NCBI GenBank assembly: GCA_963778665.1
Contig: CAVZVG010000003.1
Span: 128,813-192,812, forward strand
Direction: 5' to 3'
From: an uncultured Gammaproteobacteria bacterium
GTDB taxonomy: Bacteria > Pseudomonadota > Gammaproteobacteria > JBBQDK01
Length of the DNA: 64,000 nucleotides
Under the pieces are notes generated by a model. It had not been told where the DNA came from and made no database searches. It saw nothing but the letters and a program-made list of their open reading frames with translations. The position numbers and the translations under genes were made by a program. Of this stretch, positions 7,385-63,218 are shown piece after piece; the first letter of the stretch is position 1, and the number at the start of each line of letters is the position of its first letter.

Positions 7385-8836
7385 TTGGTATCAAGCGCAG
7401 GCCGGATACAATGCACCGTTACTTTATGCAATGAGCCGAAGAACCGATCCGTGACAACTTCCGATTTCGACAAGCGGGTACTGATCGAGCAGGTGCGCTC
7501 TATCGAAGCGGAGCATGCGCTGGCCGACGACGCGCAGGGAGTCGCCGCCGATCTGCCCGCGCACAGTGATTTCGACGAGCGTCTCTGGCAACGGGCGCGG
7601 CAGCTTGTCGAGCGCAACGACTTGCAGTCCATTGTGGGGCGCGCCGCCATCCAGTCGCGCCGTGTCAATGGCATCGCCTTGCTCGTGGTTGCCGTGTCCG
7701 GTGCGCTGGCGACGAGTTACGCGCTTACCGCCGACCATGCCATCAATATCTACTGGCTGTTGCTGGTCCTGCTCGGTTTCAATCTGTTGTCCATGCTGCT
7801 GTGGCTGGTGGGCATCAGCCTGCATATGGAAGGCTTGATAAGCGGTGTGCTGGCCAAGCTGACCAGCTGGCTGCCCGCGCAGCTGAAAACCAATGGCAGC
7901 GTCGGCAGCCGCGCGGACCGCGCCTGGCTGGCCTGCAACTTCGGCGGCAAGGTCGGCAAGTGGCAGCTCAGCAAAATCGCGCATCAACTCTGGTTGGTGT
8001 ATATGCTCGCCGGACTGCTGGTGTTGGTGCTGGTACTGATGACGCGTCAGTACGACTTCGTCTGGGGCACGACACTGTTGTCCGATACGGCCTTCGTGAA
8101 ACTGACCAAGGCCTTGAGCACGCCACTGCAGGCATTGGGCCTGACCACGCCGACGCCACAGCAGGTTCAGGAGACGCGCATCGGCGCATTACAAGTATTG
8201 ACCGCCGCGCATCGCTACGCCTGGGCGCAGTTTCTGTTGGGCGCGTTGCTGTGCTTCGGCATCGTGCCGCGACTGCTGCTCTGGTGCTGGTCCGTGCTGA
8301 TGCGCGGCCTGGCCCGACGGCGCTTCGCGCTCGATCACTACCTGCCTTATTACATCGCTCTGCGCCAGCAATTGCTGCCGCTGGCGGGTCATGGCCGGAT
8401 CATCGACGCCGACACCTCGCCGCCTGCTGCCGATGCCGCGCCGCGCAGCGAGCCTGTGCCACACCAACTTCCGACTGAGGCGCAATGGGTGTCGGTCGAG
8501 CTCGGCGATGCTATCGCCTGGCCGCCGCAATCCGTCGACCCCGGCAGTGATCTCGGCCAGGTGGTCGATCGCGACTCGCTGACGCGGATATTGCAACGCC
8601 TGCAGCACGGCGCAGTGCCTGTGCTTGCCGTGGCGGTAGCGGCGGCCCGGTCGCCCGACCGCGGCGTGCAACGCACGATCGCCGACTTGATAGCGAACAG
8701 CGCGCAAGCCTGGCTGGTGCTGCTGCACAGCCGTGAGCATGCTGCGATCTCCACCACGCGATTGGCGGCCTGGTACCGGCTGGCCGAGGCTTGCAAGGTG
8801 CCTGCCGATCACGTCATCAGCATGAGCGTGGCGTAA
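7385..8836 (+). CDS. DUF2868-like polytopic membrane protein (partner of the downstream GTPase)
   Basis: 483 aa. TTG start at 7385, or GTG at 7451. Several TM helices (LLVVAVSGALATSYAL; IYWLLLVLLGFNLLSMLLWLVGISL; LWLVYMLAGLLVLVLVLM). Ala/Pro-rich C-terminus. The stop lies 4 nt before the GTPase gene. Confidence 0.5.
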   Translation: MVSSAGRIQCTVTLCNEPKNRSVTTSDFDKRVLIEQVRSIEAEHALADDAQGVAADLPAHSDFDERLWQRARQLVERNDLQSIVGRAAIQSRRVNGIALLVVAVSGALATSYALTADHAINIYWLLLVLLGFNLLSMLLWLVGISLHMEGLISGVLAKLTSWLPAQLKTNGSVGSRADRAWLACNFGGKVGKWQLSKIAHQLWLVYMLAGLLVLVLVLMTRQYDFVWGTTLLSDTAFVKLTKALSTPLQALGLTTPTPQQVQETRIGALQVLTAAHRYAWAQFLLGALLCFGIVPRLLLWCWSVLMRGLARRRFALDHYLPYYIALRQQLLPLAGHGRIIDADTSPPAADAAPRSEPVPHQLPTEAQWVSVELGDAIAWPPQSVDPGSDLGQVVDRDSLTRILQRLQHGAVPVLAVAVAAARSPDRGVQRTIADLIANSAQAWLVLLHSREHAAISTTRLAAWYRLAEACKVPADHVISMSVA

Positions 8837-8840
8837 AGCG

Positions 8841-10277
8841 ATGCCGAACCAGCCACGCGACGCCGGCATCCCTCCCGTCAGGCTTGCCGTGGTCGGTCAC
8901 ACCAATGCCGGCAAAACCTCCTTGATTCGTACCCTGCTGCGTGACGATCGGTTCGGCAAGATCGATGACGCCGCCGGCACGACGCGGCATGTGGAAAGCT
9001 CGGCGATTTTTGCCGGCGACGATGCGGTGTTGAATCTGTTCGACACACCCGGCTTCGAGGATTCCAGTGCCTTGTTGCAGAGGCTGGAAGCACTGGGGAA
9101 AACCGTTCCGGTCAAAGCGCCGGCGGATTTGTTGCGCGAGTTCATCGCGCGGGCGGCCGATTACCCCGACTTCGCGCAGGAAACCAAGGTGCTGCGGCAG
9201 GCGCTCAACAGCGATGTGCTGCTGTATATCATCGATGTGCGCGAACCCCTGTTGGGCAAGTATCGCGATGAAGTCGAAATCCTCGGCAAGGCCGGCAAGC
9301 CGATCGTTCCGGTGTTCAATTTCATCGCCGGCAACAGCGATGCCCTGGCGCGCTGGCGCGAACAGATGGCGCATTTCAATCTGCATGCGGCCTTGGAATT
9401 CGATACCGTCGCATTCGATTTCGAGGCCGAGAAGCGCCTCTACCAGAAGCTGCAAAGCCTGTACGAGAAACGTTACGATGCGCTGCAGGCGCTCATCGAC
9501 TATCGCCAGGAGGTGTGGGAAAACCTGCGGCATGCCGCCGCGCAGCGCATCTTTCAGTTGCTCGCCGAGGTCAGTTGTTATCGACGCGAAGTGAGCGGCA
9601 AGGGCGCCATCGCGCGCGTCGACATCGAATCAATGCAGGACTTCGTGCGCAGCGCGGAACAGCGCGCCTTGCGGGATCTGCTGGCGATATTCGCGTTTAC
9701 GCAGTTGGATGTCGACCTGCAGCAACTGCCCGTGAGCGACGGACAATGGGAGCTGGATATCTTCTCGCCCCGTGCCTTGAAGGTCTTCGGGCTGAACGCC
9801 GGCGCGACCGCGTTGAAGGGCGCCGCCGCCGGAGCGGGCGTCGACCTGATGGTCGGCGGTTTGAGTCTCGGTGCGGCAACACTGTTAGGTGCGGCGCTGG
9901 GTGCGGGATGGGCGACCGTGCGACGCTATGAACAGGAGTTGAAGGCCGCCTGGCGCGGGCACAAATGGTTGTGTGTGGATGACAACACGATCAGCCTGCT
10001 CTACCTCAGACAACGCCAGCTGTTGCAGACGCTGACGCAGCGCGGGCATGCCGCCCGCAACAAACTGCAACTCGCCGACGCCGCGGATCGCGCGCTGCCC
10101 AAGCGCTGGTCCAGGGTCGTCACCGTGCTGCGCCAGAATCCCGAATGGCAACAGGCCGCAGCGGGCGATCCGGAATATCAGCAAATGCAGACGCAGGTCG
10201 TGGAGTGGTTGTTGAGTGATGGAGATACCGCTTCGGGAAGTTCCGATGACACAGTGGTCGGTAATCAAGACTACTAA
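8841..10277 (+). CDS. membrane-associated GTPase (DUF3482-like; MMR_HSR1-type G domain)
   Basis: G1 GHTNAGKTS; G3 DTPGFED. C-terminal Gly/Ala-rich hydrophobic segment GLSLGAATLLGAALGAGWA. Confidence 0.55.
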   Translation: MPNQPRDAGIPPVRLAVVGHTNAGKTSLIRTLLRDDRFGKIDDAAGTTRHVESSAIFAGDDAVLNLFDTPGFEDSSALLQRLEALGKTVPVKAPADLLREFIARAADYPDFAQETKVLRQALNSDVLLYIIDVREPLLGKYRDEVEILGKAGKPIVPVFNFIAGNSDALARWREQMAHFNLHAALEFDTVAFDFEAEKRLYQKLQSLYEKRYDALQALIDYRQEVWENLRHAAAQRIFQLLAEVSCYRREVSGKGAIARVDIESMQDFVRSAEQRALRDLLAIFAFTQLDVDLQQLPVSDGQWELDIFSPRALKVFGLNAGATALKGAAAGAGVDLMVGGLSLGAATLLGAALGAGWATVRRYEQELKAAWRGHKWLCVDDNTISLLYLRQRQLLQTLTQRGHAARNKLQLADAADRALPKRWSRVVTVLRQNPEWQQAAAGDPEYQQMQTQVVEWLLSDGDTASGSSDDTVVGNQDY

Positions 10278-10491: not shown

Positions 10492-11878
10492 TCAACCGAG
10501 CTTGTTGTCGGCGATGTGGTAATGCGGGTCTTCCTGCACATTCAGTTCGACCATGTCCTTGGCCTTGTCCAGCACTTCCAGGCAATCCGGGCTGAGGTGG
10601 CGCAAGTGCAGGCGCTTGCCGAGCAGCTGGTAGCGGGTTGCCAGCATGTCGATCGCTTCGACCGCCGAATGATCCATCACCTTGGCGCGGCGGAATTCGA
10701 CCACCACTTCATCCGGGTCGTCGAACGGGCGTGAACAAAGACTGGAAGCCGGCGGTCGAGGCGAAGAACAGCGAGCCTTCCAGTTCGTAGACCTTCCAGC
10801 CCTTGCCGTCGGTATAGGTCGTCACGTCGATCTGCTTGGCGTGCTGCCAGGCGAACACCAGCGCGGCAATCACCACGCCGAGCACCACCGCGATGGCAAG
10901 ATCGGTGAAGACGGTCACTATCGGTCACCGCCACCACGATGATGGCATCGGAACGGGGCATCTTGCCCAGGACCTGCAGGCTGCCCCATTCGAAGGTCTT
11001 TTCCGACACCACGAACATCACGCCGATCAGTGCGGCCAGCGGAATCCGCTCGATCAGGCTGGAACCGAACAGGATGAAGGACAGCAGGAACAGCGCCATG
11101 GCGATGCCGGACAGGCGATGGGTGGCGCCGTTGTTCACGTTGATCATGCTCTGGCCGATCATGGCGCAACCGCCCATGCCGCCGAACAAGCCGGTGACCA
11201 CGTTGGCGGCGCCTTGCGCCAGGCACTCCCGATTCGGCTTGCCGCGGGTGTCGGTCATTTCGTCGATCAGATTCAGTGTCAGCAGCGATTCGGTCAGGCC
11301 GATGGTCGCCAGGATCAGCGCGTAGGGAAACACGATCTGCAGCGTTGCCCAGTTCAGCGGCACATCCGGCATGTGGAACATCGGCAGTCCGCCCTCAATC
11401 GAAGCCGAGGTCGCCGACCGTCTTGGTGTCGATGCCGAGCCAGGCTCACCAGCAGCCGACACCGCCAGAATGCCGCCAGCGTGGCCGAGGCATCGCCTTG
11501 GTGAGCCTGGGCAGCAGATAGATGATCGCCATCGTCACCGCGATCAGGCCCAGCATGGTGCACAGCGGCATGCCCTGCATCCAGTGCTGGTGCCATCGGC
11601 AGCCGGTGTCTTGAAGTGCGCCAATTGCGCCAGGAAGATCACGATCGCCAGGCCGTTGACGAAGCCCAGCATCACCGGATACGGCACCATGCGGATGAAC
11701 TTGCCCAGCTTGGCAGCGCGCCGAACAGCATTTGCAGCAGGCCCATCAGCACCACGGTGGCGAACAGATACTCCACGCCGTGCTGCACCACCAGCGACAC
11801 CATGACCACCGCAAGCGAGCCGGTGGCGCCGGAAATCATGCCGGGCCGACCGCCGAAGGTCGCGGTGATCAAGGCCAT
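10492..11878 (-). pseudogene. SulP/DauA-family anion transporter with STAS domain, disrupted by at least 5 frameshifts
   Basis: Fragments in three frames: STAS C-terminus (VVEFRRAKVMDHSAVEAIDML), STAS N-part (ELEGSLFFASTAGFQSLF), and TM core (ESLLTLNLIDEMTDTRGKPNRECLAQGAANVVTGLFGGMGGCAMIGQS..., [44 protein letters not shown]), collinear with E. coli DauA. The N-terminal ~80 codons (up to ~12110) are not recoverable. Confidence 0.6.
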
Positions 11879-12274
11879 GATGAACGCGGCATACAGGCCG
11901 GTCAGTGGCTAGACATGGGCCACCAGTGCAAAGGCGATGGCTTCGGGCACCATCGCCAGGGCGACGGTGAGACCGCTCAATACGTTGTTCTGATCTCTTG
12001 CGGGGTGAGTGCGGACAAGTGACTTCTCCAGATTCTGAATACGCAGTGCTGCAAGAGTCCGGCCGCAAGGCGGGGAATGGCAGAGTACGAAAAGTGGACA
12101 GGGTATGACGCGGGCGTTCAGGCAGTGTGTATCGGGGAACGAATAACTCTAAACAGGTGCTGCGTAAGGGGGCGTCACATCGGCCTGTCGGGCCGCCCGA
12201 AATCGATGACATCAGCCCTGAAGTATATCATGTCGGCCTGCCCGGCGGTCTGAAATCGACCTGCGTTTCCCCGC

Positions 12275-13642
12275 TCAGTCCAGCGCCGTCAACTTCGCGC
12301 GCATGTCTTTGTTGATCTGCAGCAGGCGTTTTTTGTTGTCCGCCGGCACTGTCGTCAGCGCCTTGACCCGCGCCGCATAATCCGCCGTCACGCCGAGTGT
12401 CTCCTCGATCATGTCGCGCAGCGCCGCGCGCGAGAAACCGAAGCCCTTGGCGAGTTGCAGCAGCGCCGCCGCAAAGCCAACCGTATCCCCGGCCTTGTCC
12501 GCTTCGCCATAGCCGCCGAACGGCATCACCGCCAGCATATCGTGCCGACTGTAGGCGCGCATCGGCGTCGGGTCGTAGACCGGCGACCAGCCGAGTTGGC
12601 CATCGCGTTGCAGGAACGACAGATTCTCCAGATGCAGGTCACCGTTGCCGGTAATGAAGGCCAGCAACAGGCGTTGCAACAACTGCCGCTTCGCCGTCGG
12701 CGGATCCGACACCAATGGAATCGGCGAGCGATCGATGGCACGGCCGAGCGCGTCATAGGAGCTGCTGTAGTGATGCGTGACGCGCGCATCGCCGGTCGCC
12801 ATCACGGCGTAGGCGGTTTCCATGAACAGCGGGCGGCCGTTGGCATCGCGGTCGAAGCGTTCGATGGCGATGGCCGGAATGCCGTTGATCTCGGTGATCC
12901 AGTGGCGCGGCACGGCGAAACCGGCCTGTGCATGTATATCCAGCGTCAGCGCCTCCAGTTCGACGATGCCGCGATACTGTTCCTTCTCGAATTTCAGCAC
13001 CACATCGCAGCGACCTTCGCTCGCGCTGCGGCTCGGCAGACCGATGCGACCGTCCCAGCCCGACGCCGGTATCGACAGCAGCAACTTCGGAATCGCGCCA
13101 CCGACACTCGGCGTCGGTCCGAGCGCCGCCAGCAGCGCCTCGGCGTCCTGATCCATCCAGGCCAGAAATTCCTTCAGCGAGAAGCCGACTTTCTCGCTGA
13201 TCGGCATCAGTGGTGCCGGCGCCTTGTCGGCATACCAGGCCTGCGCCTTGGCATCGCTCTCGAACACATCGAGATGGCCGATGCCGCCATGCCCGGCGGT
13301 CAGCAGCATCGCCCAATCGCTGTCGAAGCCGGGCTTGGGGGTGCGACCTTGTTGTTCGAGATACGACAACACCAATCGACGCTGGAAATTCGCCTCGCCC
13401 GCCGGCGGCACATGGAATTGCAATTGCGGCAGCAGATTGAAATACGTCGAGCGTTCCCAGGTGATGGTCGTGGTGCCGACGAACGACGGCGCGTACAGAA
13501 TGCCCAGTCCGGGCAGATCCGCGCCGAGAAAGTCCGCGTCATAGCTGAAGCGGCATTGCGTGTCGGTGACCGTGAGCACGCCCATCTTCTGCGCGGCCGA
13601 GCCGATGCGCGTCCACACCACCGCGTGCTTGTCCGTCGCCAT
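12275..13642 (-). CDS. hipA: HipA-family Ser/Thr kinase toxin
   Basis: 455 aa. Catalytic-loop motif GNGDLHLENLSF (compare HipA GNTDDHLKNFS). Has both HipA N- and C-terminal domains. Confidence 0.75.
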   Translation of the reverse strand: MATDKHAVVWTRIGSAAQKMGVLTVTDTQCRFSYDADFLGADLPGLGILYAPSFVGTTTITWERSTYFNLLPQLQFHVPPAGEANFQRRLVLSYLEQQGRTPKPGFDSDWAMLLTAGHGGIGHLDVFESDAKAQAWYADKAPAPLMPISEKVGFSLKEFLAWMDQDAEALLAALGPTPSVGGAIPKLLLSIPASGWDGRIGLPSRSASEGRCDVVLKFEKEQYRGIVELEALTLDIHAQAGFAVPRHWITEINGIPAIAIERFDRDANGRPLFMETAYAVMATGDARVTHHYSSSYDALGRAIDRSPIPLVSDPPTAKRQLLQRLLLAFITGNGDLHLENLSFLQRDGQLGWSPVYDPTPMRAYSRHDMLAVMPFGGYGEADKAGDTVGFAAALLQLAKGFGFSRAALRDMIEETLGVTADYAARVKALTTVPADNKKRLLQINKDMRAKLTALD

Positions 13643-15145: not shown

Positions 15146-17194
15146 ATGCCGCATTATCCTGTCGACGCTATCCGCAACATCGCACTGGTGGGGCAGAGCG
15201 GCAGCGGCAAGACCACCCTGGTCGAGGCCTTGCTGCATCGCGCCGGTGTCATCGGCACGCCCGGTGCGGTGGCCAGGGGCAACACGGTCTGCGACTTCAG
15301 TCCTTTGGAAAAGGAGTATTGCCATTCGCTGTCGTCCAGCGTGGTGAGCTTCGATCACGATCGCCTGCACATCAATCTTATCGACACGCCCGGTCTGCCG
15401 GACTTCGTCGGTCAGTCCATCGCCGCCTTGAGCGCGGTGGAGACGGTGGCGGTGGTGGTGGATGCCGTGGCGGGCATCGAGCCGGTCACGCGGCGTATGC
15501 TGGAGTGGGCCGCGGCGCGCAAATTGTGCCGCCTGGTCATCATCAATCGCATCGATACGCCGGGCGCTAAACTCGAGGAACTGGTGGCGTCGCTGCGCGA
15601 TGAGTTCGGTCCCGAGTGCCTGCCGCTGAATCTGCCGTCCGACAACAATGCGGCGGTAGTCGACTGCTTCTTCACGCCCGACGGCACGGCGGATTTCTCT
15701 TCGGTCAGCGTGGCGCACGATAACATCGTCGATCAGGTGGTCGAGGTCGACGAAGCGCTCATGGCGGTCTATCTGGAGCAGGGTCAGGCGCTGGCGCCCG
15801 AGCAATTGCATCAGCCCTTCGAGCAGGCCTTGCGCGAAGGCCATCTGGTGCCGATCTGTTTCGTCTCGGCGCAAACCGGTGTCGGCGTGCCGGAGCTGCT
15901 GGAGATATTCGAACGCCTGATGCCGAATCCGCTGGAGGCCAATCCGCCGGCCTTTCTCATCGGCGAAGGCGCGGCGGCCCGGCCGTTCGCGGTCGTGCCG
16001 GACCCCGGCAAGCACGTGGTCGCGCATGTGTTCAAGGTGATGGCCGATCCGTTCGTCGGCAAGCTCGGCGTGTTCCGCATTCATCAGGGCACGGTGACCC
16101 GAGCCAGTCAGTTGTTCGTCGGCGACGGCCGCAAGCCGTTCAAGATCGCCCATCTGTTCAAGCTGCAGGGCAACAAGCAGGCCGAAGTCGAGACCGGGAT
16201 CGCCGGCGACATCTGCGCGGTGGCCAAGATCGAGGAACTGCACTTCGATGCCGTGCTGCACGATTCGCACGAGACGGATTACCTGCATAGCAAACCGCTG
16301 CCGTTTCCGGTGCCGGTATTCGGTCTGGCGGTGGCGGCGAGCAGCCGTACCGATGAGCAGCGACTGTCATCCGCATTGGCGCGACTGGTCGAGGAGGATC
16401 CCTGTCTGCACCTGGAGCAGGACAGCGAGCAGAATGAAATGGTGCTGCGCGGCCTCGGTGAGTTGCACTTGCGCGTGACCCTGGAGCAGATGAAAGAGCG
16501 CTTCAGGATCGAGGCCGAGTCACGTCCGCCGCGCATCGCTTTCCGCGAGACCATTTCGACAGCGGCGGAAGGCCACCATCGTCACAAAAAGCAGACCGGC
16601 GGTGCCGGTCAGTTCGGCGAAGTGTTTCTGCGCGTGGCGCCGCTGGAGCGCGGCGCGGGCTTTCGCTTCGTCGATGCGGTGAAGGGCGGCGTGATTCCCG
16701 GGCAGTTCATTCCGGCGGTGGAGAAGGGCGTGCGCCAGGCCTTGCACGGCGGCGTGGTCGCCGGGTTTCCGCTGCAGGATATCGAGGTCACGGTGTACGA
16801 CGGCAAGCATCACACGGTGGATTCGAAAGAGGTGGCCTTCAGTGCCGCGGGCAGGAAGGCCTTTCTCGACGCGGTACGCAAGGCCAATCCCATACTGCTC
16901 GAGCCCATCATCCGACTGGTGCTGACGGTACCGAACGACCACATGGGCGCATTGACCGGCGATCTCACCGCGCGCCGCGGCCACGTACTCGGCACGCGCG
17001 CCTCAGCCAACGGACGGCTGATCCTCGACGCGTTGGCGCCCTTGGCGGAGCTCAGCGATTACGCGGGCAAGTTCAAATCCATCACCGCCGGCCAGGGCAG
17101 TTTCACGCTCGAATTCAGTCACTACGAAGCGGCACCGACAAAACTGCAGGCCGAGCTGGCGGCGCAATGGCGGCCGAAGGCGGAGGAAGACTGA
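15146..17194 (+). CDS. elongation factor G family GTPase (EF-G paralogue)
   Basis: 682 aa. G1 GQSGSGKTT; G3 DTPGLPDF. EF-G domains II-V recognisable. AAGGGA Shine-Dalgarno. Confidence 0.75.
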   Translation: MPHYPVDAIRNIALVGQSGSGKTTLVEALLHRAGVIGTPGAVARGNTVCDFSPLEKEYCHSLSSSVVSFDHDRLHINLIDTPGLPDFVGQSIAALSAVETVAVVVDAVAGIEPVTRRMLEWAAARKLCRLVIINRIDTPGAKLEELVASLRDEFGPECLPLNLPSDNNAAVVDCFFTPDGTADFSSVSVAHDNIVDQVVEVDEALMAVYLEQGQALAPEQLHQPFEQALREGHLVPICFVSAQTGVGVPELLEIFERLMPNPLEANPPAFLIGEGAAARPFAVVPDPGKHVVAHVFKVMADPFVGKLGVFRIHQGTVTRASQLFVGDGRKPFKIAHLFKLQGNKQAEVETGIAGDICAVAKIEELHFDAVLHDSHETDYLHSKPLPFPVPVFGLAVAASSRTDEQRLSSALARLVEEDPCLHLEQDSEQNEMVLRGLGELHLRVTLEQMKERFRIEAESRPPRIAFRETISTAAEGHHRHKKQTGGAGQFGEVFLRVAPLERGAGFRFVDAVKGGVIPGQFIPAVEKGVRQALHGGVVAGFPLQDIEVTVYDGKHHTVDSKEVAFSAAGRKAFLDAVRKANPILLEPIIRLVLTVPNDHMGALTGDLTARRGHVLGTRASANGRLILDALAPLAELSDYAGKFKSITAGQGSFTLEFSHYEAAPTKLQAELAAQWRPKAEED

Positions 17195-17216: not shown

Positions 17217-17516
17217 GAGGATGGCACTTACTTAAGCGCTGAATTAGGAATGTAGCCTGGGCTGAGCGGTAGCGAAACCCGGGTTTCACTTCGTTCAACC
17301 CAGGCTACGTGTTGGCTTAAACGGTTAAGTAAGTGCCATTCCATTTAAGGAGCCTCTGATTTATTGAACTCATCAAAATGGAGAGGGGAGTAATCGAATA
17401 AATCAAGAGTTTCCTTAACAGAAAAATGCCTGCCGCAGAGGCGCTGAGGACGCAGAGAACAACCAGACACATGAATAACAACCTCATTACCTCTGCGTCC
17501 TCTGCGCCTCTGCGGC
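17217..17516. repeat. family D (GTAGCCTGGG...CCCAGGCTAC hairpin inside ATGGCACTTACTTAA inverted repeats), family H and family B (CCGCAGAGGCGCTGAGGACGCAGAGA inverted repeats) elements
   Basis: Family D also at 44733-44768 and 58938-59031. Family B also at 50409-50491. These overlap the annotated N-terminal extension of the LOG ORF. Confidence 0.55.
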
Positions 17517-17557
17517 ACAAGTCCATTCAGAATTTTCCTTTCGATGAGCAAACAATC

Positions 17558-18520
17558 ATGACTGAGCCTGCCGATCCGCATACACCATCAAAAGCCATAC
17601 CGGCGCCGGCGCATCCGCACCAGCGCCGCGAGCCCTTGCCCTGGCAACAACCGAAGACCATCGAGGAGGATCCGCTGTCGCATCAGCGGGTCAGGGTCAT
17701 ACTCGATAGCCCGAGTTATCGGGAGGCGGACCAGGATGTGGAGTTTCTCAATTGTGATTCGGTGCGCGGCGTGCGTCTGCTGCTCGATTATCTCAAACCG
17801 GAAACACTGCTGGCGCAGCACGGCGTGCTGCACACCATCGTGACCTTCGGCAGCACGCGTATCGTCGAACCGGCGGCGGCGCAGCGCAAGCTCACTGCGT
17901 TGCGCGATGCCGTGGCCCGCTCACCGGGCGATACGCAGTTGCATGCGCGGCTGACCGTGGCGGAACGCCTGCTGGAAAAAAGCCGCTATTATGATGTCGC
18001 CCGTGAGTTCGGTCGGCTGGTCGGTGCGTGCGGCGAGGGACCGAAAGATTCGCGTGTGGTGCTCATGACCGGCGGCGGGCCGGGTCTGATGGAGGCGGCC
18101 AATCGCGGCGCATTCGACGCCGACGCCGTGAACATCGGCCTGAATGTGACCTTGCCGCATGAGCAATACCCCAATCCTTATATCAGCCCCGATTTGTGTT
18201 TCCGCTTTCATTATTTCGCCATGCGCAAATTGCACTTCCTGCTGCGGGCCAAGGCGCTGGTGGCGTTTCCCGGCGGTTATGGCACCTTCGACGAACTGTT
18301 CGAGACACTGACGCTGGTGCAGACACGGAAGATCCAGCCCTTGCCGGTGGTACTGGTGGGCGAAGCCTTCTGGTCCAAGGCCTTCGATCTGCAATTTCTC
18401 GTCGACGAGGGCGTGATCGATCCGGAGGATGCGGAATTGTTCTGGGTAGTCGAGACCGCCGAAGAGGCCTGGCAGGGTATTCTCAAATGGCATGAGGAGA
18501 ACGGCACGCCGTTATTCTGA
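17558..18520 (+). CDS. LOG family protein (TIGR00730; cytokinin riboside 5'-monophosphate phosphoribohydrolase-like)
   Basis: PGGYGTFDELFE motif; GGGPGLMEAANRGA. The ORF-track start 17426 runs through a repeat element, so ATG 17558 is preferred. Confidence 0.75.
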   Translation: MTEPADPHTPSKAIPAPAHPHQRREPLPWQQPKTIEEDPLSHQRVRVILDSPSYREADQDVEFLNCDSVRGVRLLLDYLKPETLLAQHGVLHTIVTFGSTRIVEPAAAQRKLTALRDAVARSPGDTQLHARLTVAERLLEKSRYYDVAREFGRLVGACGEGPKDSRVVLMTGGGPGLMEAANRGAFDADAVNIGLNVTLPHEQYPNPYISPDLCFRFHYFAMRKLHFLLRAKALVAFPGGYGTFDELFETLTLVQTRKIQPLPVVLVGEAFWSKAFDLQFLVDEGVIDPEDAELFWVVETAEEAWQGILKWHEENGTPLF

Positions 18521-31871: not shown

Positions 31872-32414
31872 GTGGCGTTTATAGCGCAAAAGATATTTGT
31901 TTTGTGTCTGCGACACATTACTACAATCTTGTGTGAGTTTTCCGTCCTAATTGTAGTGCTCGTAGTATGCTGTCAGCCCTTGGCAAAGGCATCCGTCAGT
32001 TTGCCACCCATTCTAACCCCTACGTATCTGTACAATACTTCATGGGATAGCGGCGTTCCCCTTCGCACGTACTCATCGTTTGATGAGATGAGTCAACGAA
32101 TTATACAGTCTCTCTTAAATTCTGACCCGATCCTCTTCGCGGGAAGCTATTGGATTCAAGGGTCGAATCTCTTGATCCGCAGCCCTAACTACGGGAGCGG
32201 AGCAACGTTTGATTGGCCCGGGTATTATGCCTGTAGTGATCCGTATGGAACCGTTACTGGAGTGCCGGTAGATTATACAAATCAAGACACTCCTTACCTT
32301 TGTGCCTCATGCGCTCCCGGGGCCTTTTTATATGGACCTGATACGAACTATCAGTGCATGGGTTACTACATCGAATCTCAACGTTTCAATCCAATTAATA
32401 ATGGAGGAAACTAA
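31872..32414 (+). CDS. hypothetical protein encoded in low-GC (~45%) DNA immediately upstream of Rhs
   Basis: 180-aa ORF in AT-richer DNA, where long random ORFs are unlikely. Hydrophobic N-terminal segment; 6 Cys in the C-terminal half. No family recognised. Confidence 0.3.
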   Translation: MAFIAQKIFVLCLRHITTILCEFSVLIVVLVVCCQPLAKASVSLPPILTPTYLYNTSWDSGVPLRTYSSFDEMSQRIIQSLLNSDPILFAGSYWIQGSNLLIRSPNYGSGATFDWPGYYACSDPYGTVTGVPVDYTNQDTPYLCASCAPGAFLYGPDTNYQCMGYYIESQRFNPINNGGN

Positions 32415-35400
32415 ATATTGTCCGGCAATTGTTGGAGACCCCATCAGTCTCACAACTGGCAACAAGTTCCAAGTAGAGGACGTAGTGATCGGCAACACTC
32501 CGAGTGGTCTCTCATTCGCTAGCTACTATAACAGCCAAGCAGAAACTGCAGGCTCTCTGGGTGTTAACTGGCAACATACCTACGGCAGCGTGCTGCAATT
32601 TGACAGTGCGTCGTCAGGCCCTCCCCCACAGAATCCGTACATTCCGCAGCGGAGCAATATCTACTCCTCACCTCAGGGTGCCTGCGATCAGGCTGGAATG
32701 ATATCAAAGGCAACATTGCAGAGCCGTGGGTCAGCACCGCTGTTACTCTATACACAAATAATCGCTGTGAGATATACAGCAACGGCAGGTTGGTGTTGCT
32801 CTTGCCTATTTATTATCTGGGCGGTACGATTTTTTCTGGGGGCGGACTTATTTCGTCAACACTTCCAACACATACCGTCACAGTCATTCGCCCTGATGGC
32901 AAACAGATCCAATTCAGCAAGATCAGCGGTGTCTGGCAGAACCAGTCCTATATTGCCGAGCACTTGACCGAGACTGACGATAGCAATGGCAATACCACCG
33001 GCTACACCTACACAACTGCCGATGACAACACCGAAAATTACGACGCTACCGGCAGGCTCCAGTCCATCACCGACATCGCGGTAACACGCAGAACACTCAG
33101 TTACGATCGCCAGGGCGTCTTTCCACCGTCATACCAATACTGCCGAGTCGCTGACGTTCAGTTACGATATCAGCAACCGCATCAGCACGATAACCGATCA
33201 AGGCGGCCGGTCTGGCTGTACGGCTACGACGCCAACAACAATCTCGCCTCGGTCACCTATCCGGACGCTACGATCGCCGACAACACCGACAATCCGGAGC
33301 GCGTCTATCTCTACGAGAACACCAGCTTCCCACACGCACTGACTAGCATCACCGATTGCGCGCACGTATCGAGCTGCAGCACCTCCGCCGTGAACCACTA
33401 CGCCAACTTCGAGTACGACGCGCAACGGCCGCGCCACCGCGAGCTATCTCGGTCCAGCAGACATCGGTGACTGACCGACCGCATCGAAGGCGTCTCCATC
33501 GTCTACAACAGCGACTTCATGCGCACCGTCACCAACAGTCGAGGCAAGGTCAGCACCTACAGCACCACCACGCAACTCGGCGTGGCGCTGGTCACCGGTA
33601 TCACCGGTCCGGGGTGTTCCTCGTGCGGCGGCAAGCAATGCAAGCACCAGTATGACGGCAGCAACAACCTCACCAGCAAAACCGATAACAACGGCCACGT
33701 CACCCATTACGGCAACTACGATGCCAACGGCAACCCGGGCTGCGTGGTCGAAGGCATGACGACGGCGGATGCCAGCACCGGCGTGTGCAGCTTCGATCCC
33801 GCCGCCTCGCCCGATGCACGCCGCATCGATTACACCTACGACCCACGCTTCCACAGCAAGGTCGCGACGATCAGCGAACCGTCGGTGTACGCAGGGCACA
33901 ACAAGCTCACCACCAACAGCTACGACGACTACGGCAACCTGACCCAGGTCACGATCAGCGGCTATACACCCGACGGCACTCCCGTCACGCGCACCACGGG
34001 CGGCACCTACGCCGGTCCCTTGCATCAGCTCTCACTGATCGACGGCCCGCGCACCGATGTGCAGGATCTCACGACACTGGCCTATTACCCCGACGATCCG
34101 ACGCAAGGCAGCAACCGCGCCCGCCTGCTGAGCGTCACCGACGCCATGGGTATCGCGTTGCGGTCCAACATCCAGTACTCCGCCACCGGCAAGGTGCTGT
34201 CCGAGTCGCGTCCCAACGGTGTCTCTCTGACCTACACCTATTACCCCGGCAACGACCGCCTGCACACATTGACCGAGACCGGCGGCGGCACCAGCCGCGT
34301 GCTGAGCTGGACCTATCTGCCGACCGGCGAGGTGCAGTCCATCACCACCGCGAGCGGCACCGCCGCCGCCACGACCTTGACCCTCGGTTATGACGCCGGC
34401 CGTCGCCTCACCCGCATCACCGACGGCCTCGGCAATTACATCGAGTACACGCTCGACACCGAAGACAACCGTATCGGCGAGAACACCTACGACAGCAACG
34501 GCGCCCTCAAGAAAGCCATCACCCAGACCTTCGACGACTACAACCATCTGAGCAGCCGCAGTCAGGCCAATGAGACCCTCACCACCCACGTCGCGCCGGA
34601 CGGCACCCTCAGCAACACGGTCGATGGCAACAGCAGCACGACAAGTTATGGCTACGACGCCCTGAAGCGCCTGATCAGCACCACCCAGGACCTGGGCGGC
34701 AGTGATCCCACCACCCAGAACGCACTGACCCAGTACGCCTATGACAGTCACGACGACCTCATCCGGGTCATCGATCCCGACAACCATGCCACCAACTATA
34801 GCTACGACGATCTTGGCGACCTGATCAGCACCACCAGTCCGGACACCGGCACCACCACCAATACCTATGACGCCGCCGGCAACCTCAAGACCCGCAGCGA
34901 TGCCAACGGCAGTTCGTTCAGCTACAGCTACGACGCCGACAACCGCCTCACGCTCGTCGACGCCCCCGGCAGCAACGATGACATCACCTACACCTACGAC
35001 ACCTGCACCGACGGCGCCGGCCGGTTGTGCAAGGTCAGCACGCCCGGCAACAGCGTGTTCTACACCTACACCGCCTTCGGCGAGATCGCCGGCAGCGAGG
35101 GGCTGTATTACAGCTACGATGCCGCCGGCCGGGTGCAGACCATGACCTATCCTTCCGGCGCCGTGGTGACCTACGGCTACGATGCCGCCGGTGGGATCAC
35201 CAGCGTGCAGCTCAACCGCAACGGCACGATCACCAACCTCGCCAGCGGCATCGTGCACGCGCCGTTCGGTCCGGTGACGGCGCTGAGCTACGGCAATGGC
35301 AAGACGCTGACGCAGACACTCGACAGCGCCTATCGGCTGCAAGCACAGACCGTCCCCGCCGCCCTCGATCTGAGTTATCCGCAGTACGATGCCAACGGCA

Positions 35401-37094
35401 ACCTCATGCAGCGCGGCGACAGCTTCGCCACGCCCGCGACCAGCGGCTTTGGCTACGACGCCCTGAACCGCCTCAACACCGCCACCGGTCCGTTCGGCAG
35501 CCGCAGCTACAGCGACGACAAGAACGGCAACCGCACCCAGCTCGCCGATGGCACGACGACCGACTACAGCTACGAGTCCGGCAGCAACCGCTTGCATACG
35601 ATCGGCACGGCCGACGTGCTGAACGACGCCAACGGCAACATGCTCGGCAACGGTGTCTGGAGCTATGCCTACAACACCCACAACCGAATGACGCAGGCCA
35701 AGCAGAGCGGTACGGTGATCGGCAGCTATAGCTACAACGGCCTGGGCCAGCGCGTCGTCAAGACGCTCGCCAACGGCAAGGGCCGGGTGTTCCTGTACGG
35801 CACCCACGGCGAACTGCTGGCCGAGGCCGATCAGGGCGGCACCGTCCTCAGCGAATACATCTACCTCGACGGCACGCTGCTCGCGATCAACCAGCCCGAC
35901 GACAACAATAACGGCCAGACCAATGCCCAGGAAGATGTCGCCGGCACCAACCCGGTCAGTGCCGACTATGACGTCGACGGCCTCAGCAACCTCACCGAGT
36001 GGTTCGTGACCGGCACCAATGCGCGCCAACACCGATACCGACGGCGACGGCATCAGCGACAGCGTGGAAGATCGCCAAAGGCACCGACCCGCTGAACGGC
36101 AGCGCCTATCCCGGCGACGGCGACCTCAACCAGGACGGCCAGATCAACGCCGGCGATCTGGTACTGGAATCGCAGATCGCCCTCGGCACCCGCACCCCGA
36201 CCGCCACGCAACTCACCCACGGCGACATGAACCAGGACGGCGATCATCGACGTGCGCGATATGCTGAAGCTGGAAAGAAAGATACTGGGGCTGGCGTTCA
36301 ACAGCCTCACCACGCTGCCCGGGTATCAGACGCTGGTCGCCAGCCTCGATCGGGCCAAAGACACACTCCACAGCACGGCACACCAACTCCTCGCGAGCCT
36401 GATCAGCGAGGCCGATGCCGCGACACCGGGCGGGAAGATCTTTTATGTGCACACTGATCAGGTCGGGACACCGCAGGTGCTGACCGACGAGACCGGTGCC
36501 GTCGTCTGGCGGGCGAGTTATGATCCGTACGGGATGGCGACGGTGACACTGGCGACGGGCAATCCCATTCCGGAGATGGATATCAGGATGCCGGGGCAGT
36601 ACTTCGATCAGGAGACTGGGCTGCATTACAACTACTATCGGGATTATGATCCGAAGAGCGGTAGATACCCGGAAGTAGACGCCATTGGTTTAGCAGGTGG
36701 GACGAATCCCTACGTGTACGGGTATAACAACCCACTGAGATATACAGACCCGTCAGGACTGAAACCCATTCCATGTCCCCCAGGGTCTCCTGAGGGCGCC
36801 ACATGCGATGATGGAACAGATAATCAGAATTCCCCGCCTGTCTGTGTAACTGCTGAATGTGCAGCAAACATATTACCTAACCCTCCTTCTGATGCTTGCG
36901 ACATTGAGTGCGGGTTTGCCTCTGATGCGTGGTCATCTAGGCAAATGGTTTGCACTCCAATCGGCGGTGTAGCGCGACTCTTTGGAGCACCAGGATGGGC
37001 TGTCTCAACTGGGTGCAAAATTATTGCATCGCACGAATGTAAGAAAAAGTGCGAGAAACGCAAGGAGAAGAGTGTCCCATGTACAAAAAAATAG
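32401..37094 (+). pseudogene. Rhs/YD-repeat polymorphic toxin, frameshifted in at least 5 places
   Basis: N-terminal Rhs motif CPAIVGDPISLTTGNKF...GVNWQHTYG. About 50 YD repeats. Core end IFYVHTDQVGTPQVLTDETGAVVWRASYDPYG...DPSGL at 36747-36761, then a 110-aa Cys-rich tip. Frame changes near 32800-32960, 33470-33520, 36030, 36065 and 36245. Confidence 0.7.
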
Positions 37095-37414
37095 CACTAT
37101 CAACAATTATCTTGTATCAACGATTTATATCCCCCTACAAGGGTTACTGTTGCGCGCATCGTATCGCGTATGGCGGACCGTCATGCTCGCAATATGCCGC
37201 AATAGTTATATCTGAATCTGGAGTTCTATCTTCAATTCTGAAGATTAAGTTTCGTTTGCATAAATGCAGAGCTGCCTATGCTCAATTGCTAACAGACCAT
37301 ACAAATGGCATCGGCAGTAACGGTGGTGAGACTGATGACAACCAAGCGAATGGGAAGTGTGGGCCATGTGCGAAAGACACCGCAGGGAATATATGCACAA
37401 TGCCTTGTCTGTGA
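37079..37414 (+). CDS. YidD/DUF37-like protein (membrane protein insertion efficiency factor homologue) with Cys-rich tail, in the Rhs immunity position
   Basis: ILYQRFISPYKGYCCAHRIAYGGPSCSQYA...KFRLHKC matches the YidD pattern YQRLISP...CRF.PTCS.Y...KC. Overlaps the Rhs stop by 16 nt. Low GC, like the Rhs tip. Confidence 0.55.
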   Translation: MYKKIALSTIILYQRFISPYKGYCCAHRIAYGGPSCSQYAAIVISESGVLSSILKIKFRLHKCRAAYAQLLTDHTNGIGSNGGETDDNQANGKCGPCAKDTAGNICTMPCL

Positions 37415-37481
37415 CTGCCAAAGGTGACGACTGCCAAAGGTGACAACCAAAGGTGACCAACCAAAGACTGCCAAAGGTGAC
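37413..37481. repeat. degenerate tandem array of a 16-bp unit GACTGCCAAAGGTGAC (about 4 copies)
   Basis: Two perfect units at 37413-37444, then degenerate units running into the left REP of the RAYT. Confidence 0.6.
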
Positions 37482-37483
37482 AG

Positions 37484-38283
37484 ACGAACCAAAAGGGACA
37501 GATTTATTTGAGTCCACCATGCGGCAAGCTTGAGTGGTCAAAAATCACGGAGAGGAAGACATGCCAAGGAATGGCAGAGTTGTGTTGCAAAACTACCCCC
37601 ATCACATCGTGCAACGTGGCCATAACCGGCAAGTTGTGTTTGCCGGGGAAGATGACTTCAGGTACTACCTCGACACGTTAATAAAGTGGAAAACAGAGTA
37701 TGGCGTCAAGGTCTATGGTTATTGCCTGATGACTAATCATGTTCACTTGGTGCTGGAACCGCCCGACGAGATCGCAGTGCTGGGCCGGTTGATGAAACGA
37801 CTGGCAGGGCGGCAGACCCGCTATGTGAATCGTCTGGAAGGTCGGCGCGGGACTCTTTGGGAGAGTAGATATAAATCGAGCCCAATCCAGACCGATGAGT
37901 ATTTGTTGGCATGCTGTCGTTATGTGGATCTCAATCCGGTACGAGCGCGCATGGTGGTTTCACCACAAGATTATCATTGGTCAAGCTACAGGATGAAGGT
38001 GGGATTGGACGCATCATCTTGGATAGACGAAGATCCTTGTTATTTGTCGCTTGGTCTCGTAGCCGCAACAGCGGTATGAACGTTACCAAGACTTTGTGTA
38101 TTCAGCGATAGCGGAGGGTGAATGGGAGTTGATACGACAGGCCGTTCATCGTTGCCAATTGACAGGAAACAAATACTTTATCGATGAAGTAAACGTATCA
38201 CAGGTCGGCGAATAGAGCACCGCAACCCTGGCAATCAACCGCTGGAGAAGCGCGCCAAATAAATCTGTCCCCTTTGGTTCGTC
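37484..38283 (+). mobile_element. REP-associated tyrosine transposase (RAYT, IS200/IS605-like HuH) flanked by 28-bp inverted REPs; transposase frameshifted
   Basis: Inverted repeats GACGAACCAAAAGGGACAGATTTATTTG (37484-37510) and CAAATAAATCTGTCCCCTTTGGTTCGTC (38256-38283), 1 mismatch. CDS 37561-38215 has HuH motif MTNHVHLVL and Tyr motif RYVDLNPVRARMV..WSSY. A C-terminal frame change near 38070 continues into ...EGEWELIRQAVHRCQLTGNKYFIDE. Confidence 0.65.
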
Positions 38284-62790: not shown

Positions 62791-63014
62791 AAATCGGCCG
62801 GATCGAGGTCCATGACCTGTTTCGGGGCGGACTATTGCCCGGATCGGGGGGTGATCGAGGGGAAAAAGAACTGGATATCGCGCGGAGTTGGTGTATATTG
62901 GCGGCGTTGGAGTGCACTTCTTGTGGTCGGTTCGGTATTCAATCCCGTAATTTTTCTTCCAAGAATGAACTGCAAACCAACGCATTTCTACTTTTATTAT
63001 TACGAGGTATTACC

Positions 63015-63218
63015 GTGACGACAGGAACAGTAAAGTGGTTTAACGATGCCAAAGGCTTCGGCTTCATTACCCCGCAGGACGGCAGCAAGGATGTATTCGT
63101 TCATCACTCCGCCATCCAGGGCAGCGGCTTCAAGAGCCTGGCCGAAGGCCAGCAGGTAACGTTTGATGTCGAACAGGGCCCGAAAGGTCCGTCAGCCGTA
63201 AACGTAAAACCGGCCTGA
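63015..63218 (+). CDS. cspA: cold-shock protein (CspA family)
   Basis: [15 protein letters not shown] (RNP1) and VFVHH (RNP2). GTG start with GAGGT Shine-Dalgarno. The 225-aa track ORF 62541..63218 is an upstream extension. Confidence 0.85.

What the first reader, a model, noticed from the sequence alone, without database searches (positions are those of the whole stretch)
7385..10277. Tightly linked polytopic membrane protein and membrane-anchored GTPase pair of unknown function (DUF2868/DUF3482-like)
A 483-aa multi-TM protein ends 4 nt before a 478-aa P-loop GTPase (GHTNAGKTS; DTPGFED) with a long helical middle region and a C-terminal Gly/Ala-rich hydrophobic anchor. To my knowledge the pair is conserved across proteobacteria but entirely uncharacterised. 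The architecture resembles a small membrane-remodelling or dynamin-like GTPase with a dedicated membrane partner.
Basis: partly seen in the sequence, partly recalled or inferred. Interest (0 to 1): 0.6.

Follow-up and report, generated by a model that had tools for sequence, protein, structure and literature searches.

The report
Conserved uncharacterised membrane-protein/GTPase gene pair
Two abutting genes encode a four-helix inner-membrane protein (DUF2868) and a GTPase with a helical, glycine-rich tail (DUF3482); the pair is inherited as a unit across hundreds of beta- and gammaproteobacterial species, including Pseudomonas aeruginosa, Neisseria gonorrhoeae and Bordetella, and I found no study of its function.

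Summary
ORF 7385-8836 (more likely 7451-8836, 461 aa) is Pfam DUF2868 (E 9e-70). ORF 8841-10277 (478 aa) is a small G domain plus DUF3482 (E 8e-87). Four nucleotides separate them.

In 80 genomes from different species, the DUF2868 gene lies directly upstream on the same strand in 79. The two proteins' divergence is tightly correlated (r = 0.97). No other neighbour is conserved, and in Pseudomonas the pair sits among core genes. Full-text searches found no functional study.

- The Gly/Ala-rich segment is internal (residues 316-358 of 478), only borderline hydrophobic, and followed by about 120 more residues.
- The protein does not pass tests for the dynamin, LeoA, AIG1 or FeoB families. Its G domain is nearest the Era/Der/MnmE group.
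- The canonical NKxD motif is replaced by N-F-x-A in all 62 diverse members examined.

DUF2868 has four transmembrane helices and a cytoplasmic alpha/beta domain with an invariant PDRG loop.

Best reading: a self-contained, membrane-associated GTPase module that acts on or through the inner membrane. What it actually does is unknown. This is a new member of a catalogued but uncharacterised kind, of moderate interest.

The parts
7385..7412 (+). Promoter-like site (TTGGTA, 16 nt, TACAAT) in the 107-nt gap after the upstream symporter gene
Evidence: Consensus scan. This is a weak pattern match, not proof of function.
7451..8836 (+). DUF2868 gene, 461 aa from GTG 7451 (the longest possible ORF starts at TTG 7385)
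   Evidence: Pfam PF11067, E 8.6e-70. The identical 461-aa public protein is P0121. AlphaFold2 model has mean pLDDT 78.6.
7670..7819 (+). Transmembrane helices 1 and 2 of DUF2868 (about residues 74-94 and 99-123), a tight hairpin carrying conserved G84, N99 and W118
   Evidence: Hydropathy, model helices 59-90 and 100-123, conservation across 25-29 diverse homologues.
7976..8296 (+). Transmembrane helix 3 (about residues 176-198), a conserved loop (F203, W205, T208, G230, P234) and transmembrane helix 4 (about residues 257-282) with invariant R274 in the YG..PR motif
   Evidence: The placement of the loop in the periplasm is inferred from the positive-inside rule.
8483..8833 (+). C-terminal cytoplasmic alpha/beta domain of DUF2868 (residues 345-461; order strand-strand-helix-strand-helix-strand-helix-strand), with the conserved P402-D403-R404-G405 loop at 8654-8665
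   Evidence: Model and conservation. Foldseek against the PDB gives nothing significant (best E 0.33), but the weak hits are dominated by G domains.
8837..8840 (+). 4-nt spacer between the two genes
   Evidence: Across 80 loci, the GTPase P-loop codon starts a median of 39.5 nt after the DUF2868 stop codon.
8841..10277 (+). GTPase/DUF3482 gene, 478 aa
   Evidence: Pfam MMR_HSR1 plus PF11981, E 7.9e-87. The identical public protein is P0001.
8877..9416 (+). G domain (residues 13-192). G1 is GHTNAGKTS (8895-8921), G2 is T47-T48, G3 is DTPG (9042-9053). There is a roughly 50-residue helical stretch between G3 and strand 4. G4 is the non-canonical N160-F-I-A (9318-9329).
9357..10199 (+). DUF3482 region (residues 173-453): long helices, a Gly-zipper hairpin, then helices carrying the conserved R401-G-H403-A motif
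   Evidence: The model is of low confidence in this region.
9786..9914 (+). Gly/Ala-rich glycine-zipper segment (residues 316-358), two short helices around invariant D335; a candidate re-entrant membrane hairpin or oligomer interface
   Evidence: Glycines fall every fourth residue. Hydrophobicity is borderline.

Best explanation
The two genes form a two-gene operon that encodes one membrane-associated GTPase module.

Shown:
- DUF2868 is an inner-membrane protein with four transmembrane helices. By the positive-inside rule, its N-terminal helical region and its C-terminal alpha/beta domain both face the cytoplasm.
- The partner is a cytoplasmic TRAFAC-class G protein of the Era/Der/MnmE-like group. 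It has a hydrophobic residue after DTPG and an invariant Asn in the P-loop.
- This G protein is extended by a helical region that contains a glycine-zipper hairpin.
- The genes abut or overlap in nearly all genomes examined and diverge in step.

Inferred mechanism:
- The GTPase docks on the cytoplasmic face of DUF2868, most plausibly on its C-terminal domain with the invariant PDRG loop.
- It cycles through nucleotide-dependent self-association, as its nearest G-domain relatives do.
- That cycle changes the conformation or oligomeric state of the membrane-embedded parts.

My best guess for the output is maintenance or remodelling of the inner membrane, in the manner of hairpin-bearing fusion GTPases such as atlastin or mitofusin, but built from a small G domain. 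The existence of a functional module is well supported. The output is a guess.
For: - Family assignment.
- Adjacency: DUF2868 is directly upstream on the same strand in 79 of 80 species loci. It is also paired in Neisseria, P. aeruginosa and Thiodictyon.
- Spacing: the P-loop codon begins within 110 nt of the DUF2868 stop codon in 72 of 80 loci.
- Co-divergence: pairwise-identity matrices correlate at r = 0.97 over 74 loci.
- Self-contained: no third gene is conserved. Pseudomonas neighbours are folA, ilvD, thyA and ptsP.
- G motifs: G1, G2 and G3 are invariant in 62 diverse members, and the residue after DTPG is L, F, M or I in all 62.
- Potassium signature: the first signature Asn (GxxNxGKT) is present (PMC3466195).
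- DUF2868 structure: four transmembrane helices plus a cytoplasmic alpha/beta domain.
- DUF2868 conservation: N99, H178, R274 and PDRG are conserved.
- GTPase domain order: G domain, long helices, Gly-zipper hairpin, helices.
Against: - There are no experimental data.
- The GTPase model is poor (mean pLDDT 56.9, and below 40 across the hairpin), so the helical-bundle and hairpin picture is not established.
- The hairpin is only borderline hydrophobic. The P. aeruginosa orthologue was predicted to have no transmembrane helix. The probable orthologue was found on a 2-D gel of soluble proteins.
- No dynamin-family membership.
- G4 lacks both Lys and Asp in every member, so the nucleotide may not be GTP.
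- The second Asn of the potassium signature is replaced by Arg30.
- Profile comparison finds no homology between the DUF2868 C-terminal domain and the G domain.
- Moraxella prophage records and one IMG/VR contig carry the GTPase with no detectable DUF2868 nearby.
Confidence: 0.4

Rival explanations
1. A split, FeoB-like device. DUF2868 oligomers form a channel or transporter, and the GTPase gates it from the cytoplasm.
For: - Polar residues inside or next to the membrane helices are invariant or nearly so across the family: N99, H178, T208 and R274 in the middle of transmembrane helix 4.
- The G domain is in the same hydrophobic-substituted group with a P-loop Asn as FeoB. FeoB_N gives weak hits in 55 of 62 members, best E 2.4e-6.
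- In this window the pair lies between a dicarboxylate symporter and a sulfate-permease gene.
Against: - DUF2868 has only four transmembrane helices and matches no transporter family in Pfam or the PDB.
- The FeoB_N match is no better than matches to other G domains and is below the cut-off (14 bits against 27 for this protein).
- The transporter neighbours are not conserved in other lineages.
Confidence: 0.2
2. A membrane-tethered regulator or assembly factor. The GTPase works as its closest sequence relatives (Der, Era, MnmE, HydF) do, on ribosomes, RNA or a cofactor-containing complex, and DUF2868 merely localises it to the membrane.
For: - The best sequence hits of the G domain are Der, MnmE, Era, HydF and IF2.
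- The probable P. aeruginosa orthologue is found on a 2-D gel of soluble proteins from stationary-phase cells.
Against: - The hits cover only G1-G3 (about residues 5-90) and lie far below every equivalog cut-off.
- No KH or other RNA-binding or cofactor-binding domain is present.
- The DUF3482 part has no relative in the PDB.
- The distribution is limited to Beta- and Gammaproteobacteria among the retrieved loci, apart from one MAG labelled Phycisphaerales. That is unlike a universal ribosome factor.
Confidence: 0.12
3. An anti-phage or other conflict module. Nucleotide-dependent oligomerisation drives the glycine-zipper hairpin into the membrane to form a pore, in the manner of abortive infection (compare the LeoA/Eleos dynamin-like defence system).
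For: - Weak PADLOC hits to LeoA and LeoBC.
- Glycine zippers are typical of pore-forming segments (my own knowledge).
- phrog_8900 matches the GTPase.
- The gene lies at the edge of 14 Moraxella prophage records and one IMG/VR contig.
- A HipA-like toxin gene lies 2 kb away in this window.
Against: - The PADLOC hits cover only the P-loop region (residues 11-73).
- In Pseudomonas the pair sits between core genes (folA, ilvD, thyA, lgt, ptsP).
- Identity falls in step with taxonomy, and the two genes co-diverge as a unit.
- Only 1 relative was found in IMG/VR, and plasmid hits are few.
- In the prophage records the gene is at the record edge, so it is probably host flank.
Confidence: 0.07

Closest known systems
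Pfam DUF2868 (PF11067) and DUF3482 (PF11981); annotated by NCBI as 'DUF2868 domain-containing protein' and 'GTPase/DUF3482 domain-containing protein'
   Same: Full-length, high-scoring matches. The gene order and spacing match annotated examples such as the Thiodictyon pTs485 pair.
   Different: Nothing differs; this pair is a member. Both families are catalogued without a function. The Pfam DUF2868 model covers only residues 154-449, although the N-terminal helices and transmembrane helices 1-2 are also conserved.
Era/Der(EngA)/MnmE/FeoB group of hydrophobic-substituted, potassium-activated, dimerisation-dependent GTPases
   Same: - Nearest G-domain relatives by sequence and fold.
- P-loop of the form GxxNxGKT.
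- Hydrophobic residue after DxxG.
   Different: - G4 is N-F-x-A rather than NKxD.
- The second potassium-signature Asn is replaced by Arg30.
- There are about 50 residues, modelled as three helices, between G3 and strand 4.
- The C-terminal domain is unrelated to those of this group.
- It has a dedicated membrane partner.
Atlastin, mitofusin/Fzo1 and bacterial dynamin-like proteins (BDLP, DynA, LeoA, IniA)
   Same: - Same domain order: G domain, helical region, hydrophobic hairpin, further helices.
- Bacterial dynamin-like proteins also tend to be encoded as tandem pairs (my own knowledge).
   Different: - The G domain is small (about 180 residues, not about 300).
- Dynamin_N, LeoA and IIGP scores are below threshold and confined to the P-loop.
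- The partner is a polytopic membrane protein, not a second dynamin.
FeoB (G domain coupled to a membrane permease)
   Same: A G domain of the same group is coupled to a membrane-embedded component.
   Different: Here there are two polypeptides. The membrane part has four helices with no similarity to the FeoB core. FeoB_N scores below threshold.
GIMAP/AIG1, Toc34/159 and septin-like membrane-associated GTPases
   Same: - A small G domain with a helical extension and a hydrophobic segment.
- Weak AIG1 hits in 40 of 62 members and weak Septin hits in 12 of 62.
   Different: Scores are below the gathering cut-offs (AIG1 21.2 bits against 27). The hydrophobic segment is internal and Gly-rich rather than a tail anchor.

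Membership tests
Pfam DUF3482 (PF11981) GTPases | Match to PF11981 above the gathering score, following an MMR_HSR1-type G domain | tested here: met
   291.8 bits against a cut-off of 29.2, residues 173-453. MMR_HSR1 scores 50.3 bits against 21.9.
Pfam DUF2868 (PF11067) | Match to PF11067 above the gathering score | tested here: met
   236.2 bits against a cut-off of 26.8.
DUF2868/DUF3482 gene pair | DUF2868 gene immediately upstream of the GTPase gene on the same strand | tested here: met
   The gap here is 4 nt. The same arrangement holds in 79 of 80 species loci.
Dynamin superfamily, including bacterial dynamin-like proteins | Large dynamin-type G domain (Dynamin_N above threshold) | tested here: not met
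   Dynamin_N scores 19.3 bits against a cut-off of 27 and covers only residues 15-36. The G domain is about 180 residues long.
Dynamin superfamily, including bacterial dynamin-like proteins | Helical stalk or bundle with a membrane-inserting paddle or hairpin | tested here: inconclusive
   The secondary-structure order fits, but the model has pLDDT of 23-41 across residues 290-370. The only full-length fold match is EHD, with an rmsd above 30 Å.
Dynamin superfamily, including bacterial dynamin-like proteins | Nucleotide-dependent G-domain dimerisation and membrane remodelling | not testable with these tools
   Requires biochemistry.
LeoA/Eleos defence system | Full-length match to the LeoA or LeoBC models and a leoABC-type gene set | tested here: not met
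   The LeoA hit (31.6 bits) covers residues 11-73 only. The LeoBC hit scores 27.7 bits. No second dynamin-like gene is adjacent.
Potassium-activated GTPases (MnmE, FeoB, Der and relatives) | Asn in G1 (GxxNxGKS/T) | tested here: met
   N22 is present in 62 of 62 members. The signature is as described in PMC3466195.
Potassium-activated GTPases (MnmE, FeoB, Der and relatives) | Second Asn, five residues after the P-loop Lys, that stabilises the K-loop | tested here: not met
   That position is Arg30, conserved in at least 90% of members.
Canonical guanine-specific GTPases | G4 motif [NT]KxD | tested here: not met
   N160 is present in 62 of 62 members, F161 in 60 of 62, and the fourth position is Ala, Ser or Gln, with no Asp among the five commonest residues.
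Der, Era and MnmE equivalogs | NCBIfam equivalog score and the family-specific C-terminal or N-terminal domains | tested here: not met
   Scores of 43, 42 and 25 bits against cut-offs of 253, 307 and 237. Only residues 12-85 match.
FeoB | FeoB_N above threshold plus the FeoB membrane core | tested here: not met
   FeoB_N scores 14 bits against a cut-off of 27. There is no FeoB_C or Gate hit on either protein.
AIG1/GIMAP and septin-like GTPases | AIG1 or Septin Pfam match above threshold | tested here: not met
   AIG1 scores 21.2 bits against 27 and Septin 15.3 bits against 26.2.

The most novel reading that the evidence does not exclude
The C-terminal cytoplasmic domain of DUF2868 is a degenerate G domain that has lost its P-loop. 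It forms a heterodimer with the DUF3482 GTPase across the nucleotide site, and the invariant Arg404 of the PDRG loop acts in trans.

The pair would then be a previously unrecognised class of bacterial heterodimeric membrane GTPase. It would be Rag- or SRP-like in pairing logic and atlastin-like in domain order. It would also have an unusual base-recognition site (N-F-x-A) and would remodel or gate the inner membrane.
Probability: 0.15. Interest if true: 0.8.

Novelty: new member of a known kind. Interest (0 to 1): 0.5.

Why it matters
The pair is found in at least 593 species of the 185,579-species genome set. These include P. aeruginosa, N. gonorrhoeae, Bordetella, Nitrosomonas and many marine Gammaproteobacteria. 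Yet the held literature contains no functional study of it.

It is a compact two-gene unit, which makes it easy to approach experimentally. Its G domain has clear, testable oddities: no NKxD motif, and only half of the potassium signature. Its membrane partner has an invariant Arg inside a membrane helix.

Working out its role could reveal a new way in which bacteria couple nucleotide hydrolysis to the inner membrane. For this window alone, however, the result is a correct identification of an already catalogued 'known unknown', not a new kind of system.

Tried and rejected
- **PDB sequence searches.** Both single proteins and diverse profiles were tried. Only the G1-G3 region matched, to Der, MnmE and Era. 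Nothing matched DUF3482 or DUF2868. Weak designed-armadillo hits (E 0.012) were judged compositional.
- **Profile comparison of DUF2868 with the GTPase.** This tested the pseudo-G-domain idea and gave no signal (probability 0.4%).
- **GTPase structure prediction.** A co-fold was not possible.
- **Search for a conserved third gene.** None was found. The recurrent antisense ORFs are artefacts of the conserved genes they overlap. The 599-aa and 274-aa ORFs in L068 are spurious high-GC ORFs.
- **Search for natural fusions of the two proteins.** None appeared among the 150 best cluster representatives or the top hits of the two homologue searches. The 240-residue C-terminal extension of DUF2868 in L061 does not match DUF3482.
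- **Weak Pfam links (DUF697, glycine-zipper families, transporters).** None was found.
- **Literature.** Searches by Pfam or InterPro accession and by guessed PA14 locus tags found nothing. One search with guessed locus tags from other species returned only irrelevant hits.
- **Mobile-element origin.** Rejected, given the core-genome context and near absence from IMG/VR and plasmids.
Full report
**1. What is in the sequence**

ORF listing shows 7385..8836 + (483 aa, TTG start) and 8841..10277 + (478 aa, ATG start). The translations contain the quoted motifs, GHTNAGKTS at residues 19-27 and DTPGFED at residues 68-74. The genes are separated by 4 nt.

Pfam assigns the first protein to DUF2868 (E 8.6e-70). 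It assigns the second to MMR_HSR1 (residues 15-160) plus DUF3482 (residues 173-453, E 7.9e-87). NCBIfam has no model for either protein. It gives only sub-threshold hits of residues 12-85 to MnmE, Der, HydF and Era.

The first gene more likely starts at GTG 7451, giving 461 aa. The identical public protein P0121 is 461 aa, and most homologues are 461 aa and start at the same residue. The TTG at 7385 is also the -35-like hexamer of a promoter-like site at 7385-7412. Base composition of the region is unremarkable.

**2. Anatomy of the membrane protein**

Hydropathy gives four strong hydrophobic helices, at roughly residues 74-94, 99-123, 176-198 and 257-282 in the 461-aa numbering. The AlphaFold2 model has mean pLDDT 78.6 and shows, in order:
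- N-terminal helices;
- four long membrane helices;
- a disordered linker at residues 308-344;
- a C-terminal alpha/beta domain at residues 345-461, with the order strand-strand-helix-strand-helix-strand-helix-strand.

The distribution of Arg and Lys (positive-inside rule, my inference) puts the N-terminus, the 124-165 loop and the C-terminal domain in the cytoplasm.

Across 25-29 homologues with as little as 23% identity, the following residues are invariant or nearly so:
- G84, N99 and W118;
- H178 and W181;
- F203, W205, T208, G230 and P234;
- W258, Y269, G270, P273 and R274, an Arg in the middle of transmembrane helix 4;
- W357, P402-D403-R404-G405 and W441.

Foldseek against the PDB gives no significant match (best E 0.33). 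The weak list is nevertheless dominated by G domains: EngA with probability 0.96 over 89 columns at rmsd 3.0 Å, then TrmE, RhoG, Gtr1, Rheb and EF-Tu. Profile-profile comparison with the GTPase family gives no signal. PDB profile searches find nothing. A degenerate G-domain fold is therefore a lead, not a result.

**3. Anatomy of the GTPase**

In 62 diverse family members (22-52% identity to the window protein), the motifs are as follows:

| Motif | Sequence | Conservation |
|---|---|---|
| G1 | GH[TA]NxGKT | G, H, N, G, K and T in 62/62 |
| G2 | T47-T48 | 58/62 and 61/62 |
| G3 | DTPG | D, P and G in 62/62; T in 56/62 |
| Residue after G3 | L, F, M or I | 62/62 |
| G4 position | N160-F161-x-[A/S/Q] | N160 in 62/62, F161 in 60/62; no Lys or Asp among the five commonest residues listed at these positions |

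A hydrophobic residue after DxxG is the hallmark of the hydrophobic-substituted GTPases such as Era, Der, MnmE and FeoB (my own knowledge).

The G4 Asp normally sets guanine specificity. Its mutation switches specificity in Ras, EF-Tu and FtsY, as summarised in PMC3466195. Nucleotide preference therefore needs testing here.

Of the two Asn residues that mark potassium-activated GTPases (PMC3466195), the P-loop Asn is present (N22). The second, five residues after the Lys, is replaced by conserved Arg30. W172, H182 and D188 are also invariant or nearly so.

About 50 residues, modelled as three helices and carrying a conserved F.QE.KVL motif, lie between G3 and strand 4.

The DUF3482 part consists of:
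- long helices at residues 194-285;
- a conserved D.F.P motif;
- a Gly/Ala-rich glycine-zipper segment at residues 316-358, with glycines every fourth residue around invariant D335;
- about 120 further residues of helices carrying a conserved RGHA motif.

The structure model is poor here: mean pLDDT is 56.9, and 23-41 across residues 290-370. Fold hits are generic G domains, namely Gtr1, IF2, Era, EngB, septin and EHD, at E around 1e-4.

The glycine-zipper segment is only borderline hydrophobic. A published in-silico study of the P. aeruginosa orthologue reports no transmembrane helix for it (PMC12864544). A 50-kDa 'hypothetical protein PA0344' was identified on a 2-D gel of soluble proteins from stationary-phase PAO1 (PMC3240657). 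Equating PA0344 with the GTPase rests on gene order next to thyA, on my memory of PAO1 numbering, and on an approximate mass match. It is probable, not certain.

**4. Co-conservation**

They cover Pseudomonas, Marinomonas, Hahella, Psychromonas, Pseudidiomarina, Halothiobacillus, Thioalkalivibrio, Nitrosomonas, Bordetella and others.

Profile searches of six-frame ORFs find a DUF2868 gene directly upstream on the same strand in 79 of 80 loci. One of these is cut by a contig end. In Bordetella ansorpii the two genes are 5 kb apart, with a Crp/Fnr regulator and a coproporphyrinogen oxidase between them.

The P-loop codon starts within 110 nt of the DUF2868 stop codon in 72 of 80 loci, with a median of 39.5 nt. 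That leaves room only for abutting or overlapping genes. Pairwise identities of the two proteins across 74 loci correlate at r = 0.97, and DUF2868 evolves faster (mean identity 34% against 47%).

The pair is also present in N. gonorrhoeae, P. aeruginosa and Thiodictyon syntrophicum. In Thiodictyon, RefSeq names the genes 'DUF2868 domain-containing protein' and 'GTPase/DUF3482 domain-containing protein'.

At the 50%-identity cluster level, 197 clusters score below E 1e-30. The 150 best hits listed are 129-532 aa, most of them 440-510 aa, and none is long enough to be a fusion with DUF2868.

No third gene is conserved. Pseudomonas neighbours are folA, ilvD, thyA, an FkbM-type methyltransferase, ptsP and a GGDEF protein. 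In this window the neighbours are a dicarboxylate symporter, sulfate-permease fragments and a HipA-like kinase.

**5. Mobile or defence context**

PADLOC gives only P-loop hits to LeoA and LeoBC. Plasmid hits are few: two N. gonorrhoeae chromosomes filed as plasmids, the Thiodictyon megaplasmid, and one weak G-domain-only hit.

Phage-database hits are 14 Moraxella prophage records with the gene at the record edge, plus an unverified 'Pseudomonas phage Y10' record that carries P. aeruginosa chromosomal genes. IMG/VR holds one relative, again at a contig edge. phrog_8900 matches the GTPase, probably because of those records.

In the Moraxella and IMG/VR cases no DUF2868 is detectable nearby. This is the one real exception to the pairing.

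**6. Literature**

Full-text searches for the DUF names and for the Pfam and InterPro accessions return four papers:
- one in-silico annotation list;
- one machine-learning feature list;
- one phylogenomic marker paper;

None addresses function.

**7. Interpretation**

Well supported: a two-gene operon encodes a polytopic inner-membrane protein and a cognate TRAFAC-class G protein that are inherited, and presumably act, as one unit.

Inferred: the GTPase docks on the cytoplasmic face of DUF2868 and uses a nucleotide-driven association cycle, like its nearest relatives, to change the state of the membrane-embedded parts.

The output is open. I favour membrane maintenance or remodelling, because of the order G domain, helices, hairpin, helices. 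Next comes a GTPase-gated channel or transporter, because of the invariant intramembrane polar residues. After that come a membrane-tethered assembly or regulatory factor and, least likely, a defence module.

The pair is a member of catalogued families. It fails the membership tests for the dynamin, LeoA, FeoB, AIG1 and Der/Era/MnmE families. The resemblance to atlastin or mitofusin is in domain order only.

**8. Verdict**

Novelty: a new member of a known but uncharacterised kind. Interest is moderate (0.5).

Noticed in passing
window 10677-12212 (- strand): A sulfate-permease (SulP) gene appears split into two ORFs. ORF 10677-11462 matches the C-terminal part of Sulfate_transp. ORF 11544-12212 matches the N-terminal part only weakly. 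This may be a frameshifted or decaying gene.
   Followed up: partly
window 12275-13642 (- strand): A HipA-like kinase (HipA_C, E 1.4e-29), presumably the toxin of a toxin-antitoxin pair, lies 2 kb downstream of the GTPase gene.
   Followed up: no
window 15146-17194 (+) and 17426-18520 (+): A 682-aa EF-G-like paralogue with all five EF-G domains, followed by a 364-aa LOG-family ('lysine decarboxylase'-like) protein with a roughly 200-residue N-terminal extension.
   Followed up: no
window 33519-36095 (+), within the compositionally odd stretch 32000-38000: An 858-aa YD/RHS-repeat protein by eye, with many 'YDANGN'-type repeats. It lies in a region of strong negative GC skew (-0.18) and positive AT skew (+0.25), followed by low-GC DNA (0.535). 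This is typical of RHS toxin cassettes with variable tips.
   Followed up: partly
window 62877-63282 (+): Full-length match to the cspA thermoregulator 5' UTR (Rfam RF01766, 119.6 bits). It is the only Rfam hit in the window.
   Followed up: no
L081 (Moraxella phage Mcat24, KR093648.1, 36535-37935) and L085 (IMG/VR UViG_2878540523_000002): A full-length DUF3482 GTPase sits at the edge of 14 Moraxella prophage records and one viral contig. A phage helicase lies upstream and no DUF2868 is detectable. Either this is host flank next to an integration site, or Moraxellaceae carry a solo GTPase. phrog_8900 probably derives from these records.
   Followed up: partly
L083 (OQ572411.1, 'UNVERIFIED: Pseudomonas phage Y10'): This unannotated 'phage' record contains ordinary P. 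aeruginosa chromosomal genes: thyA, an FkbM methyltransferase, a PAS-GGDEF protein and the DUF2868/DUF3482 pair. At least part of it is therefore host DNA.
   Followed up: partly
L082 (NZ_CP119142.1) and NZ_CP119140.1 in the plasmid collection: Two 2.17-Mb N. gonorrhoeae replicons are filed as plasmids in PLSDB. They are evidently chromosomes.
   Followed up: no
L068 (Bordetella ansorpii): This is the only locus of 80 in which the pair is split. About 5 kb lies between the two genes, carrying a Crp/Fnr-type regulator and a coproporphyrinogen III oxidase.
   Followed up: yes
L084:2872-4983 (Thiodictyon pTs485) and L061:1237-3414 (MAG labelled Phycisphaerales): These are enlarged DUF2868 proteins. 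The Thiodictyon protein (703 aa) has a long Pro-rich insertion in the linker and sits next to LH1 antenna genes. The L061 protein has a roughly 240-residue C-terminal extension with its own Ala/Gly-rich hydrophobic stretch, which does not match DUF3482.
   Followed up: partly
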